Positions 2,800 to 9,452 of a stretch of 41,900 nucleotides of DNA are shown here, in pieces. Source of the DNA: a virus (Duplodnaviria > Heunggongvirae > Uroviricota > Caudoviricetes). The position numbers and the translations under genes were made by a program. Under the pieces are notes generated by a model. The model was not told the origin of the DNA, made no database searches, and saw only the letters and a program-made list of their open reading frames with translations. The stretch's first letter is position 1. Each line of letters starts with the position of its first letter. The DNA is taken from the IMG/VR virus record IMGVR_UViG_3300028960_000080, positions 1 through 41,900 of that record. The stretch is one strand, 5' to 3'.

Positions 2800-3105
2800 T
2801 TATTTCACCTCTTGTTGTGACATTGTTGAAAAATGGATACCAGCTCGTTGCTGCCAGATGATCCAACCGAGAGTCATATCCCATGCCATGTATTCGTTAT
2901 CGCCGTTTTTTGCTCTCCGACGATCTACTAAGTCACCGAAACGCTTTTCCATGAATAATTCATAAGCTTCGCGTTCATCTGGTTCTACTTCCAGAGATAG
3001 GAGTGCGATTTCATAAGCACGGCGCTCAATATCGTCTCGCACGTCAAGGCTGCTGATACGCTCTTTAATTTCTTTAATCAGTTCTTTGTCGGTAAAAGTG
3101 GTCAT
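2800..3105 (-). CDS. Hypothetical early-left protein (101 aa, acidic)
   Basis: Uninterrupted ORF co-oriented with the leftward operon; its start overlaps the stop of the upstream gene by 1 nt. Confidence 0.5.
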   Translation of the reverse strand: MTTFTDKELIKEIKERISSLDVRDDIERRAYEIALLSLEVEPDEREAYELFMEKRFGDLVDRRRAKNGDNEYMAWDMTLGWIIWQQRAGIHFSTMSQQEVK

Positions 3106-3467
3106 TATGCTCCAGCCTCCGGTGCTTTTGGCATTACTGCCCAGTGAGTGATATTGACGTTTTCAAGGTCCCCGACCTGAAATGTCCACTGCCATTCTCC
3201 GGTTTCTTTTTGTCCCCTGGTGTACCAGAGAGAACGCCAGCCAATTAGCCAGCCTTCTCCGTTAGCATCGAATAACAAAACACTTTCATTTGCTGGTGGC
3301 AGTTCAGTTGACACTGGTATTACTTTGTTTTCCTGTGCTGCACATTTAGCTTCAAGCGCATCGAATTTACGCACCAGGTATTCAGCATCCGTTTCATTCA
3401 CTTTCAGATCTCGCGGTACACATTTCCCGCGAAGAAACCCTTCCATTTCGAAAACATTCATGCGCAT
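3105..3467 (-). CDS. Hypothetical early-left protein (120 aa)
   Basis: ORF in the leftward operon, overlapping the stop of the HD-domain gene; Trp-rich C-terminal half. Confidence 0.55.
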   Translation of the reverse strand: MRMNVFEMEGFLRGKCVPRDLKVNETDAEYLVRKFDALEAKCAAQENKVIPVSTELPPANESVLLFDANGEGWLIGWRSLWYTRGQKETGEWQWTFQVGDLENVNITHWAVMPKAPEAGA

Positions 3468-7370: not shown

Positions 7371-7571
7371 ATGACAACTGACGATATCGAAAGCTACTTC
7401 GGCAGTATTGAGAAAGTTGCTGCTTTTTTCGGCATAACAACTGAAGCCGTTTATCAGTGGCGAAACCGTCCGGGCCAGTTAATTCCAAAAGGACGTGCAG
7501 CAGAAGCTGCATATAGAACTTGCGGACGGTTGCCATTTAAACCTGAGCTTTATGAAAAATCTAATGGATAA
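7371..7571 (+). CDS. cro: Cro-like HTH regulator (YdaS-like), 66 aa
   Basis: Small HTH protein (AAFFGITTEAVYQWRNR) divergently transcribed from cI. Confidence 0.75.
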   Translation: MTTDDIESYFGSIEKVAAFFGITTEAVYQWRNRPGQLIPKGRAAEAAYRTCGRLPFKPELYEKSNG

Positions 7572-8166
7572 ATCGATTAACAGAAACCACAGAACGATGA
7601 GGCTAACCGTGGGTAAGCATCACTGGAAAGTAGAAAAACAGCCTGAGTGGTACGTGAAAGCTGTCAGAAAAACTATCGCAAAGTTGCCGGGTGGTTACGC
7701 TGAAGCAGCTGACTGGCTGGATGTAACAGAGAACGCATTATTTAACCGCCTTCGTGCTGATGGCGATCAGATTTTCCCGCTGGGATGGGCAATGATTTTG
7801 CAACGTGCTGGTGGAACTCACTTCATTGCTGATGCTGTGGCGCAGTCTGCTAATGGCGTCTTTGTGTCTCTTCCTGACGTCGAGGATGTGGACAACGCCG
7901 ATATTAACCAGCGTCTGCTGGAAGTCATTGAACAGATCGGCAGTTATTCAAAACAGATTCGTTCAGCAATCGAAGACGGTGTAGTGGAACCGCATGAGAA
8001 GACAGCAATTAACGACGAGCTGTATCTCTCAATTTCGAAGCTGCAGGAGCATGCAGCACTTGTCTACAAAATTTTTTGCATTTCAGAAAGTAATGACGCC
8101 CGCGAGTGTGCAGCTCCGGGCGTCGTGGCGTCGATTGCTTCTGGTTGTGGAGAAACTAACGCATGA
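7495..8166 (+). CDS. YdaT-like protein occupying the cII position (start uncertain)
   Basis: ORF following cro; resembles the ydaS-ydaT pairing of Rac-like prophages; the track start is a GTG overlapping cro and alternative ATGs lack a clear ribosome-binding site. Confidence 0.55.
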
Positions 8167-8501
8167 ACAGTTTAACAACACACTACCGTCGCTCGCAACT
8201 GATTGCGCTTCCTGTACCGGGTGGAAAAGCGAAGGTGGAGTATTGCTATGCAGTAAATGTACCAGGTGACAGGGAAATTGTAACCCACAGCTTTGCAGAG
8301 TGGGCTGTGGGTGATTTCAACCGGCAGAAGGAGACAGTCCTTTGCGACAAGTTAACCGCTGGTTCAAAGATCACTACGGAGTGCCCGTCAGAGTCATTCG
8401 TTGGGAGCCGGAAACACAACGGGTTATCTACCTCCGCGAAGGCTATGAGCATGAGTGCTTCAGTCCGCTCGAACAGTTTCGTCGTAAATTCAGGGAAATA
8501 G
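8163..8501 (+). CDS. Hypothetical protein (112 aa), possibly frameshifted or partly spurious
   Basis: ATGA overlap with the upstream gene suggests coupling, but the C-terminal third is Ser-rich low complexity while an alternative frame encodes a protein-like sequence. Confidence 0.35.
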
Positions 8502-8521
8502 AGGTCGGTCATGAGCACTAA
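8342..8521 (+). CDS. Alternative-frame small ORF (59 aa, TTG start) not in the ORF track
   Basis: GAAGGAGA Shine-Dalgarno at 8327..8334, 7-nt spacer, TTG start; translation ...[42 protein letters not shown]; stop overlaps the start of the O-like gene. Confidence 0.35.
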
Positions 8522-9452
8522 ATTAACCGGCTATGTATGGGATGGTTGCGCAGCGTCAGGCATGAAATTATCCAGCGTGGCAATTATGGCCCGCCTGGCT
8601 GATTTCAGTAATGACGAAGGTGTGTGCTGGCCATCAATTGAAACCATTGCCCGCCAGATTGGCGCGGGGATGAGTACCGTCAGAACGGCTATCGCACGGC
8701 TGGAAGCAGAAGGCTGGTTAACGCGTAAGGCGCGTCGCCAGGGTAACCGCAATGCATCGAATGTTTATCAGCTTAACGTTGCGAAGCTTCAGGCAGCGGC
8801 ATTTTCTCAACTGTCAGATTCTGACACGTCAAAATCTGACGCATCAAAATCTGACCCGTCAAAATTTGATGCGTCGAAATCTGGCAAAAAAGCGGGTTTT
8901 CACCCGTCAGAATCTGGCGGGGATCCGTCAGTAAAATCAAAACATGATCCGTCAGATAAAAAAACTTCTCGTCCGGACGCTTCGCAACCGGACACGCAGA
9001 CGGATGAACAGGATTTTTTAACTCGCCATCCTGATGCGGTTGTATTCAGCCCTAAAAAGCGCCAGTGGGGGACGCAGGATGATTTGACCTGCGCACAGTG
9101 GCTCTGGAAAAAAATCATCGCCCTGTACGAGCAGGCCGCCGAATGTGACGGCGAGGTGGTTCGTCCTAAAGAACCGAACTGGACAGCCTGGGCAAACGAA
9201 ATTCGCCTGATGTGTGTGCAGGATGGTCGTACTCACAAACAAATCTGCGAGATGTACAGCCGCGTCAGCCGCGATCCGTTCTGGTGCCGTAACGTGCTCA
9301 GCCCGTCGAAGCTGCGGGAAAAATGGGATGAGCTTTCCCTGCGCTTATCGCCGTCCGTCAGCACGTACACCGAAAAACGCGAAGACCCGTACTTCAAAGC
9401 CAGTTACGACAACGTGGACTACAGCCAAATCCCGGCAGGATTCAGGGGGTGA
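8511..9452 (+). CDS. Replication initiator (lambda O-like: N-terminal winged-helix iteron binder, internal iteron-encoded linker)
   Basis: N-terminal HTH resembling phage replisome organisers; gene contains the iteron array as lambda O contains ori; sits at the O position after cro/cII-like genes. Confidence 0.75.
   Translation: MSTKLTGYVWDGCAASGMKLSSVAIMARLADFSNDEGVCWPSIETIARQIGAGMSTVRTAIARLEAEGWLTRKARRQGNRNASNVYQLNVAKLQAAAFSQLSDSDTSKSDASKSDPSKFDASKSGKKAGFHPSESGGDPSVKSKHDPSDKKTSRPDASQPDTQTDEQDFLTRHPDAVVFSPKKRQWGTQDDLTCAQWLWKKIIALYEQAAECDGEVVRPKEPNWTAWANEIRLMCVQDGRTHKQICEMYSRVSRDPFWCRNVLSPSKLREKWDELSLRLSPSVSTYTEKREDPYFKASYDNVDYSQIPAGFRG
8811..8918 (+). repeat. Origin iterons (about six ~15-bp repeats of consensus cGTCAAAATCTGAC) followed by an A-rich tract
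   Basis: Direct repeats read in sequence: CTGTCAGATTCTGAC, ACGTCAAAATCTGAC, GCATCAAAATCTGAC, CCGTCAAAATTTGAT, GCGTCGAAATCTGGC, CCGTCAGAATCTGGC. Confidence 0.7.

What the first reader, a model, noticed from the sequence alone, without database searches (positions are those of the whole stretch)
8163..8521. Frame conflict upstream of the replication initiator: Ser-rich tail in one frame versus a protein-like ORF with a strong Shine-Dalgarno in another
The track ORF 8163..8501 ends in a low-complexity Ser-rich tail ([24 protein letters not shown]), while the overlapping alternative frame encodes ...[42 protein letters not shown], preceded by GAAGGAGA and a TTG start at 8342, with a stop overlapping the start of the O-like gene. 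Either a small TTG-initiated gene is missed by ATG-based calling, or an ancestral larger gene was frameshifted.
Basis: seen in the sequence. Interest (0 to 1): 0.35.

Follow-up and report, generated by a model that had tools for sequence, protein, structure and literature searches.

The report
Two overlapping genes, both real
The 'frame conflict' is two real prophage genes written over each other in different reading frames: the cell-division-inhibitor gene ymfM and a small conserved DUF4222 gene nested in its 3' half, so published ymfM experiments cannot say which protein blocks division.

Summary
The window is an e14/SfII-like lambdoid prophage of E. coli. ORF 8163..8501 is ymfM, annotated in K-12 as 'cell division inhibitor YmfM' (SfiC). 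The TTG ORF 8342..8521 is a complete DUF4222 domain protein (Pfam E 8.6e-19), and NCBI's pipeline annotates it at exactly these coordinates, without calling ymfM.

Neither annotation is wrong. Across about 160 distinct sequences (20 clusters, about 10 lineages with saturated silent sites) the nested layout is conserved. Three results support both genes:
- The DUF4222 frame is under purifying selection (pN/pS 0.05-0.36).
- The first ~60 codons of ymfM are conserved in frame 0 and occur elsewhere as a 65-80 aa protein.
- The ymfM frame never acquires a stop inside DUF4222. Chance gives 0.02-0.18 per lineage, and stand-alone DUF4222 genes have 1-4 stops in that frame.

The Ser-rich tail is a by-product of overprinting. 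It shows no amino-acid-level constraint and is predicted disordered.

A frameshifted ancestral gene and programmed frameshifting are not supported. The small gene is already annotated. What appears new is the evidence for selected dual coding, and that SfiC activity cannot yet be assigned to either product.

The parts
8163..8501 (+). ymfM ORF (112 aa). This is the K-12 e14 gene b1148, 'cell division inhibitor YmfM' / SfiC.
   Evidence: ORF list. It has 3 aa differences from K-12 YmfM. It matches phrog_1170 at 1-112/112, E 2.5e-70. Its ATG overlaps the ymfL stop as ATGA (8163-8166).
8163..8366 (+). Conserved N-terminal module of YmfM (about residues 1-68), the part under frame-0 protein-level constraint.
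   Evidence: It is conserved at 43-65% identity in diverged relatives, with in-frame indels. pN/pS is 0-0.75. It occurs alone as a 65-80 aa protein in L011-L015. AlphaFold pLDDT is 75-83 for residues ~10-66.
8367..8498 (+). Overprinted Ser-rich C-terminal tail of YmfM, read in the +1 frame of the DUF4222 gene.
   Evidence: pN/pS is 1-12 in this frame. pLDDT is below 50 for residues 69-112. Eight of the 12 Ser codons are TCN triplets made from DUF4222 F/V/I/L codons ending in C. The frame is nevertheless stop-free in 164/164 nested sequences.
8327..8334 (+). Shine-Dalgarno (GAAGGAGA) for the DUF4222 gene, embedded in ymfM codons.
   Evidence: Read from the sequence. A GGAG/GAGG/AAGG motif lies 4-12 nt before the DUF4222 start in 19 of 20 clusters.
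8342..8521 (+). DUF4222 gene (59 aa, TTG start), nested in the -1 frame inside ymfM.
   Evidence: Pfam PF13973, E 8.6e-19. PGAP CDS WP_001250269.1 sits at the same coordinates. pN/pS is 0.05-0.36. The start is ATG or GTG in other lineages. AlphaFold pLDDT is 83, a small beta-barrel.
8499..8513 (+). Junction: the ymfM stop TAG (8499-8501) sits inside the O-gene Shine-Dalgarno (TAGAGG), 9 nt before the O-like ATG (8511).
   Evidence: Read from the sequence. The same geometry (stop, 3-9 nt, ATG) is found in 16 of 20 clusters, including clusters whose downstream gene is different.
8511..9452 (+). O-like replication initiator (HTH_36). Its first codons overlap the DUF4222 stop.
   Evidence: Pfam HTH_36, E 4.2e-11. 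Annotated as replication protein O or primosomal protein in phage records.
7609..8166 (+). ymfL (CII/CP76-like regulator), the upstream gene, translationally coupled to ymfM.
   Evidence: NCBIfam phage_reg_YmfL, E 2.5e-49. Pfam Phage_CP76. PGAP coordinates.

Best explanation
Positions 8163-8521 hold two genuine protein-coding genes of the prophage early-right operon, overlapping out of frame.

Gene 1 is ymfM (8163..8501).
- Its first ~60-68 codons encode a conserved small folded module.
- The ORF then runs on, in the +1 frame of gene 2, as a 45-50 residue disordered Ser/Thr/Ala/Gly-rich tail.
- The tail's sequence is dictated by the codons of gene 2.

Gene 2 is a 59-aa DUF4222 protein (8342..8521).
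- It is translated independently from its own Shine-Dalgarno and a TTG start.
- It is predicted to fold as an SH3/KOW-like beta-barrel.

What is shown:
- Selection acts on the DUF4222 amino-acid sequence.
- Selection acts on the YmfM N-terminal module.
- Selection acts against stop codons in the ymfM frame. It does so by restricting DUF4222 Val/Leu/Ile codons that precede A or G to C/T endings, which in turn produces the Ser-rich tail.

What is inferred:
- The frame is most likely kept open so that ribosomes translating ymfM terminate at the stop embedded in the Shine-Dalgarno of the next gene, 3-9 nt before its ATG. That would couple replication-gene translation to ymfL-ymfM translation.
- A composition-level role of the disordered tail, for example as a protease entry site for a toxic division inhibitor, is the alternative.
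- Which of the two products is the SfiC division inhibitor is unresolved.
For: Identity of the two ORFs:
- Searches identify the locus as e14-like. K-12 annotates only ymfM and PGAP annotates only the DUF4222 gene.
- DUF4222: Pfam E 8.6e-19; 139 database relatives, nearly all named DUF4222 proteins of 59-70 aa; pLDDT 83.

Comparative set:
- 282 nested loci give 164 unique sequences, 20 clusters and about 10 groups whose DUF4222 4-fold sites are saturated at 25-50% identity.
- In all of them the DUF4222 start lies 170-179 nt after the ymfM ATG (137 nt in one sequence), in the -1 frame. The start codon is TTG, ATG or GTG, and ymfM is 110-117 aa.
- pN/pS in the overlap is 0.05-0.36 in the DUF4222 frame and 1-12 in the ymfM frame. 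In the N-module it is 0-0.75 in frame 0.
- Window versus K-12: both differences upstream of 8342 are silent in ymfM. All three differences in the overlap are silent in DUF4222 and change YmfM.

Stop avoidance in the ymfM frame:
- Synonymous-codon shuffles give P(open) of 0.017-0.18 per cluster, and all 20 clusters are open. The product over 10 groups, using the largest P in each, is about 1e-11.
- Val followed by A is GTC/GTT in 47 of 47 cases, against 46% GTA/GTG in control ORFs. Leu followed by A is CTC/CTT in 9 of 9 cases.
- On a tree, stop-prone 4-fold columns show 6 changes that are all C<->T. Safe columns show 7 pyrimidine-only changes against 34 involving a purine (Fisher p 1.6e-4).
- All 13 stand-alone DUF4222 genes have 1-4 stops in that frame.

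Modularity and expression signals:
- The N-module occurs alone or separated from DUF4222 in L011-L015.
- The ymfM stop lies 3-9 nt before the next gene's ATG in 16 of 20 clusters, usually within its Shine-Dalgarno, including clusters with a different next gene. In three others it falls just inside that gene.
- The tail is predicted disordered.
Against: - No direct expression data exist for either product. A multi-omics SOS study lists the ymfM transcript but no YmfM protein (PMC11002266), and no ribosome-profiling paper mentions ymfM.
- N-module constraint is only moderate, with pN/pS around 0.5 in distant pairs.
- The AlphaFold model of YmfM is of modest confidence and has no structural match.
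- The reason the frame is kept open is inference. DUF4222 translation also ends at the O start, so coupling through ymfM is not obviously required.
- The loci came largely from IMG/VR prophage contigs of Enterobacteriaceae, so lineages are related and recombining. Independence is approximated, not proven.
Confidence: 0.85

Rival explanations
1. Only the DUF4222 gene is real, and the 112-aa ymfM ORF is a spurious long ORF. This is the view implicit in PGAP annotation, which leaves 8167-8341 intergenic.
For: PGAP genomes annotate only the DUF4222 CDS here. YmfM has no Pfam or NCBIfam family. The tail shows no amino-acid-level constraint and is predicted disordered.
Against: - The first ~60 codons are conserved in frame 0, with a 3-nt indel and silent changes.
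- They exist as stand-alone 65-80 aa ORFs immediately after ymfL in genomes lacking a nested DUF4222.
- The start has an ATGA overlap with ymfL and its own GGAG.
- The frame is kept stop-free against expectation.
Confidence: 0.04
2. Only ymfM is real, and the TTG ORF is a chance alternative-frame ORF. This is the view implicit in the K-12/EcoCyc annotation.
For: K-12 annotates only ymfM. The start codon is the weak TTG. Six unique relatives carry premature stops in the DUF4222 frame while ymfM stays intact.
Against: - Pfam E 8.6e-19 over the full domain.
- pN/pS is 0.05-0.36 in that frame, and its silent sites are saturated between lineages.
- ATG or GTG starts and a conserved Shine-Dalgarno in other lineages.
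- Stand-alone homologues exist.
- A confident beta-barrel model.
- A studied family member, RgdR (PMC3378721).
Confidence: 0.02
3. The two frames are halves of one gene. Either it is a frameshifted pseudogene of an ancestral N-module-DUF4222 fusion, or a programmed -1 ribosomal frameshift makes such a fusion.
For: The DUF4222 frame is -1 relative to ymfM. A few database proteins are in-frame fusions of 102-119 aa carrying PF13973 (P0031, P0053, P0059, P0065).
Against: - The fusions have 1-14 members and arise from indels at different places.
- No X_XXY_YYZ slippery heptamer is present in 19 of 20 clusters.
- A -1-frame stop (8312-8314) lies 27 nt before the TTG.
- DUF4222 has its own conserved Shine-Dalgarno and start.
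- The two modules are separate genes, about 700 nt apart or unlinked, in L011-L015.
- The modules recombine independently: window versus L217 has N-module pS 0.025 against DUF4222 pS 0.37.
Confidence: 0.03
4. Both N-module and DUF4222 are real, but the ymfM read-through across DUF4222 is an unselected accident. The tail is junk and the open frame persists by inheritance.
For: The tail sequence is not conserved, and DUF4222 silent-site divergence is not reduced relative to the N-module. Relatives share ancestry, so open frames are not fully independent observations.
Against: - P(open) is 0.017-0.18 per cluster, with silent sites saturated between about 10 groups.
- Stop-making codons are avoided in a context-specific way, while C<->T changes continue at the same sites.
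- 13 of 13 stand-alone DUF4222 genes have stops in this frame.
- The modules reassort by recombination, yet every recombinant is open.
- None of 164 unique sequences has ymfM truncated in the overlap, whereas 6 have DUF4222 truncated.
Confidence: 0.08

Closest known systems
YmfM / SfiC of the E. coli K-12 e14 prophage (b1148; Ansari et al., bioRxiv 10.1101/2020.11.19.390815)
   Same: The frame-0 ORF is this gene. It is 112 aa, differs from K-12 YmfM at 3 residues, and sits in the same synteny (cI-like, cro, ymfL, ymfM, O-like).
   Different: The published work treats ymfM as a single gene. The cloned ORF and the deletion both include the DUF4222 Shine-Dalgarno, TTG and whole Pfam domain (codons 1-53), so the phenotype is not assigned to a frame.
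DUF4222 (PF13973) small prophage proteins. The studied member is RgdR/ECs1581 of EHEC O157:H7 (PMC3378721).
   Same: The nested ORF is a full-length DUF4222 domain. Like RgdR it is a small prophage-borne protein that one annotation of the same DNA omits.
   Different: RgdR is 99 aa, has an RGD motif, lies in the CP-933C cryptic prophage (subset of ORFs of P4 ancestry), and regulates LEE and motility. The window protein is 59 aa, has no RGD motif and lies in a lambdoid replication region. Shared function is untested.
Out-of-frame nested or overprinted phage genes (lambda Rz/Rz1, phiX174 overlaps; from general knowledge)
   Same: A complete small gene lies in a different frame inside a longer gene, with both frames maintained. 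One frame carries the amino-acid constraint and the other is compositionally biased.
   Different: Here the overprinted part of the longer gene shows no sequence constraint, only stop avoidance. The two modules also occur un-nested in relatives, so the overlap is a facultative arrangement.
Translationally coupled operon junctions (ATGA overlaps, or a stop inside the next gene's Shine-Dalgarno; from general knowledge)
   Same: ymfL-ymfM share ATGA. The ymfM stop lies in the O-gene Shine-Dalgarno 9 nt before its ATG, and the DUF4222 stop overlaps O codons 3-4.
   Different: Coupling has not been measured here. Two overlapping upstream ORFs both end at the same downstream start.

Membership tests
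Pfam DUF4222 (PF13973) | Profile-HMM score above the gathering cut-off over most of the 53-position model | tested here: met
   67.3 bits against a cut-off of 27, E 8.6e-19, profile positions 3-52 of 53.
Pfam DUF4222 (PF13973) | Small stand-alone protein of about 58-78 aa in enterobacterial prophages | tested here: met
   59 aa. Relatives named DUF4222 are mostly 59-70 aa. Stand-alone copies occur in L013-L015 and L379-L393.
RgdR regulators (ECs1581-like) | About 99 aa with an RGD motif at residues 20-22, in a CP-933C/OI-51-type cryptic prophage | tested here: not met
   The window protein is 59 aa, has no RGD in its sequence, and sits in a lambdoid context. Only the domain is shared.
YmfM (e14 b1148; phrog_1170) | Full-length similarity to K-12 YmfM, and position between ymfL and the replication gene | tested here: met
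   109 of 112 residues are identical to K-12 YmfM. phrog_1170 matches 1-112/112, E 2.5e-70. Synteny.
YmfM (e14 b1148; phrog_1170) | Inhibits FtsZ-ring formation and causes filamentation when expressed | not testable with these tools
   Known only from expression or deletion of the whole ORF in K-12, which also carries DUF4222.
Overlapping (dual-coding) gene pair | Independent evidence of selection on both reading frames within the overlap | tested here: met
   The DUF4222 frame has pN/pS 0.05-0.36. The ymfM frame shows stop avoidance: shuffle P 0.017-0.18 in each of 20 clusters, 47 of 47 Val|A codons ending C/T, Fisher p 1.6e-4, and stand-alone controls with stops in 13 of 13. For ymfM the selection is on openness only, not on tail sequence.
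Programmed -1 ribosomal frameshift | Conserved slippery heptamer X_XXY_YYZ in the zero frame, within an open -1-frame window | tested here: not met
   No heptamer in 19 of 20 clusters. The -1 frame has a stop 27 nt upstream of the TTG.
Frameshifted pseudogene of a single ancestral gene | Relatives carry one uninterrupted ORF covering both halves | tested here: not met
   The two-ORF layout is present in all 20 clusters. Fusions are rare and heterogeneous. The modules are separate genes in L011-L015.

The most novel reading that the evidence does not exclude
The SOS-inducible division block attributed to the 112-aa YmfM (SfiC) is caused wholly or partly by the nested 59-aa DUF4222 protein, or needs both overlapping products. 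Every published construct and deletion carries both. This would give the DUF4222 family, an SH3/KOW-like barrel that includes the virulence regulator RgdR, its first cell-biological activity. It would also mean the K-12 gene name is attached to the wrong reading frame.
Probability: 0.3. Interest if true: 0.65.

Novelty: new member of a known kind. Interest (0 to 1): 0.45.

Why it matters
- Annotation. The two main annotation traditions for E. coli disagree here: K-12/EcoCyc calls ymfM, and PGAP calls the DUF4222 gene. The comparative evidence says both genes exist, so each annotation is missing one gene in thousands of genomes. Some Klebsiella phage records instead annotate a trivial antisense ORF.
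- Function. ymfM is the gene assigned to the 40-year-old SfiC phenotype and is used as a tool to make filamentous E. coli. Those experiments do not separate the two products. Single-nucleotide mutants that are silent in one frame and nonsense in the other make the question directly testable.
- Evolution. This is a clean, statistically supported example of overprinting in which only the openness of one frame is selected. It explains mechanistically how a low-complexity Ser-rich tail arises.

Tried and rejected
- Frameshifted pseudogene or ancestral fusion. Rejected because of modularity and the rarity of fusions.
- Programmed -1 frameshift. Rejected because there is no slippery site and a stop lies in the -1 frame upstream.
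- RNA structure sequestering the DUF4222 Shine-Dalgarno and TTG. The minimum-energy fold pairs GAAGGA with UCCUUU, but the z-score is -0.64 and the sequence is not conserved in other lineages, so this was not pursued.
- The antisense ORF 8246..8518 (90 aa), annotated as a CDS in some Klebsiella phage records. It is stop-free in 162 of 164 sequences, but it is in phase with DUF4222 codons and only requires the absence of TTA/CTA/TCA codons. It was treated as a trivial by-product.
- Sequence search of solved structures with both families found no hits.
- A fold search with the YmfM model gave only meaningless matches.
- Viral-contig scans with alignments returned only near-identical loci because of the best-80 cap. 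Diversity came from scans with diverged single proteins.
- Short YmfM-like database proteins (61-100 aa) were checked as possible natural truncations. They are junction chimeras, IS or adapter read-throughs (P0045 ends LSLIHI), or N-module frameshift mutants (P0063, P0066). None is a truncation inside the overlap.
- Literature searches for DUF4222, for ymfM with ribosome profiling, and for sfiC found no paper that notes the nested gene.

Full report
**1. Observation**

- An ATG ORF at 8163..8501 (112 aa) ends in the tail ...[24 protein letters not shown].
- A TTG ORF at 8342..8521 (59 aa) lies in the -1 frame. It is preceded by GAAGGAGA (8327-8334), and its TAA overlaps the ATG (8511) of an O-like HTH_36 replication gene.
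- The ymfM ATG overlaps the stop of the upstream gene as ATGA.

**2. What the locus is**

The 501 bases around the finding are 95-100% identical to more than 2,000 E. coli chromosomes and to phages SfII, SfIV and others. The context is the immunity/replication region of an e14-like lambdoid prophage: a cI-like repressor, cro, ymfL (NCBIfam phage_reg_YmfL, E 2.5e-49), the finding, then the O-like gene.

In K-12 the frame-0 ORF is ymfM (b1148, 'cell division inhibitor YmfM'), and nothing is annotated in the other frame. In PGAP-annotated genomes the reverse holds. A 'DUF4222 domain-containing protein' (WP_001250269.1) is annotated at exactly 8342..8521, and 8167-8341 is left empty.

**3. The TTG ORF is a real gene**

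- It matches Pfam DUF4222 end to end (E 8.6e-19) and phrog_1343.
- It has 139 database relatives, nearly all named DUF4222 proteins of 59-70 aa.
- A Klebsiella phage with 75% nucleotide identity encodes an 88%-identical protein that starts with ATG.
- Across 20 sequence clusters the start is TTG, ATG or GTG at the homologous codon, behind a GGAG-type motif.
- pN/pS in this frame is 0.05-0.36.
- AlphaFold gives pLDDT 83 and a five-strand small barrel. Its nearest matches are KOW, Tudor, SH3 and KorB-C domains, but none is significant (E >= 0.025).
- The only studied family member I found is RgdR of EHEC (PMC3378721).

**4. Frame 0 is also a real gene**

The first ~60 codons are conserved as protein (43-65% identity in distant relatives). 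They show an in-frame 3-nt indel and invariant motifs such as [12 protein letters not shown].

In genomes where DUF4222 is absent or lies elsewhere, this module is a 65-80 aa ORF placed directly after ymfL:
- Entomohabitans: 78 aa, then the O gene.
- Atlantibacter: 75 aa.
- Erwinia, Klebsiella spallanzanii and Mixta: 65 aa, then an antirepressor-like gene, then a stand-alone 59-aa DUF4222 about 700 nt downstream.

The N-module and DUF4222 are thus separable genes, not halves of one gene. AlphaFold gives the N-module moderate confidence (pLDDT 75-83, residues ~10-66) and leaves residues 69-112 unstructured (pLDDT below 50).

**5. Selection switches frame at about 8342**

- Between the window and K-12, the two differences upstream of 8342 are silent in ymfM. 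The three differences in the overlap are all silent in DUF4222 and all change YmfM.
- In distant pairs the overlap has pN/pS of 1-12 in the ymfM frame, so the tail sequence is not constrained.
- The silent-site divergence of DUF4222 is not lower than that of the N-module.
- Eight of the 12 Ser codons in the tail are TCN triplets created by DUF4222 Phe/Val/Ile/Leu codons ending in C. The low-complexity tail is therefore a by-product of overprinting on a beta-strand-rich protein.

**6. The ymfM frame is nevertheless kept open**

The data are 282 nested loci, giving 164 unique sequences and 20 clusters at 93% identity. These fall into about 10 groups whose DUF4222 4-fold sites are only 25-50% identical.
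- ymfM is always 110-117 aa and has no stop inside the DUF4222 body.
- With the DUF4222 protein held fixed and synonymous codons drawn from local codon usage, the ymfM frame stays open in only 1.7-18% of shuffles per cluster. The product over 10 groups, using the largest value in each, is about 1e-11.
- The signal is context-specific. Val codons followed by A are GTC/GTT in 47 of 47 cases, against 46% GTA/GTG in control ORFs. Leu followed by A is CTC/CTT in 9 of 9 cases. The same amino acids followed by C or T use G/A-ending codons freely.
- On a neighbour-joining tree, stop-prone 4-fold columns show 6 changes, all C<->T. Safe columns show 7 pyrimidine-only changes and 34 involving a purine (Fisher p 1.6e-4).
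- All 13 unique stand-alone DUF4222 genes have 1-4 stops in this frame.
- A set of 79 loci retrieved through DUF4222 alone all have the 112-aa ymfM.
- Six unique sequences carry premature stops in DUF4222 with ymfM intact. None shows the reverse.
- The N-module and DUF4222 reassort by recombination. For example, window versus L217 has N-module pS 0.025 against DUF4222 pS 0.37, yet all recombinants are open.

**7. Alternatives rejected**

- There is no slippery heptamer in 19 of 20 clusters.
- A -1-frame stop lies at 8312-8314.
- In-frame fusions of N-module and DUF4222 exist only as rare, heterogeneous variants.
- Short YmfM-like database proteins are chimeras, adapter read-throughs or N-module frameshift mutants.
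- The antisense ORF annotated in some Klebsiella phages is open only because it is in phase with DUF4222 codons.

**8. Mechanism (inferred)**

The operon is tightly packed.
- ymfL and ymfM share ATGA.
- In 16 of 20 clusters the ymfM stop lies 3-9 nt before the ATG of the next gene, usually inside a GAGG/AAGG Shine-Dalgarno (TAGAGG...ATG in the window). This holds in clusters where the next gene is a different protein.
- In the window the DUF4222 stop overlaps the first codons of the O gene; elsewhere it ends 26-92 nt further in.

I consider termination-coupled translation of the replication gene the most likely reason the ymfM frame must stay open. A composition-level function of the disordered tail is second. 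Neither has been tested.

**9. Consequence for the literature**

The SfiC assignment rests on three things: expression of the whole ymfM ORF from pBAD24, deletion of ymfM, and library clones that contain the entire region. All of these include the DUF4222 Shine-Dalgarno, TTG and codons 1-53, which is the whole Pfam domain. I found no paper that mentions the nested gene. Which product inhibits FtsZ-ring formation is therefore open, and it can be tested with the single-base mutants listed under next steps.

**10. Verdict**

- The small gene itself is already annotated by PGAP, and ymfM is already known.
- The added finding is that both are real, and that the overlap is maintained by selection.
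- This is a new, well-supported example of a known kind (overprinted phage genes), with a concrete experimental implication. Interest is moderate.

Noticed in passing
window 8805-8960: Inside the O-like gene there are 4-5 direct repeats with 15-nt spacing (TCTGAC.C.TCAAAATCTGAC), which encode the repeated peptide SKSD(A/P). They resemble the iteron array (replication origin) that lambda carries inside its O gene.
   Followed up: partly
L009, L171, L200, L201, L202, L204 (DUF4222 frame, about 1680-1860 in locus coordinates): Six unique relatives have a premature stop in the DUF4222 frame while the overlapping ymfM frame stays intact. Two are at the conserved Trp7 (TGG>TGA). Four different positions are hit within one lineage (L200-L204). 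This could be repeated loss of DUF4222, or some read-through; it remains unexplained.
   Followed up: partly
window 8246-8518 (- strand); L003 and L004 1691-1978 (-): A 90-115 aa antisense ORF is open across the DUF4222 gene and is annotated as a hypothetical protein in Klebsiella and E. coli phage records. It is in phase with DUF4222 codons and needs only the absence of TTA/CTA/TCA codons, so it is probably a mis-annotation.
   Followed up: yes
window 7495-7609: The start of ymfL is ambiguous. The longest ORF starts at GTG 7495 and overlaps cro (7371..7571). PGAP starts it at the position equivalent to 7609, and K-12 starts it 12 nt further upstream, at MRLIVGKHHW.
   Followed up: no
window 8325-8345: In the minimum-energy RNA fold the DUF4222 Shine-Dalgarno (GAAGGA) pairs with UCCUUU, which includes the first two bases of the UUG start (UCCUUUG). 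This would make DUF4222 initiation depend on ribosomes translating ymfM. The fold is no better than shuffled sequence (z -0.64), and the sequence differs in other lineages.
   Followed up: partly
L217 vs window; L191 vs L201; L148 vs L214: Silent-site divergence differs several-fold to more than 10-fold between the N-module and the DUF4222 part of the same pair of loci. This points to a recombination breakpoint near the start of the overlap, so the two modules reassort.
   Followed up: partly
proteins P0045, P0063, P0066; phrog_20047: Some short 'YmfM-like' database proteins are artefacts or mutants. P0045 (40 members) ends in LSLIHI, which reads like the translation of a Nextera sequencing adapter (recognised from memory, not checked with a tool). 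P0063 and P0066 (63 aa) are +1 frameshift variants near Trp48. The 63-aa phrog_20047 may be built from such variants.
   Followed up: partly
L001 (E. coli G4/9) 2912-3466: In the 100%-identical chromosomal copy, the O-like gene is truncated after about 80 codons and joined to tail-fibre genes (stfP). This is the K-12 e14-type deletion that fuses early and late regions. The window, in contrast, carries the full 313-aa O-like gene.
   Followed up: no
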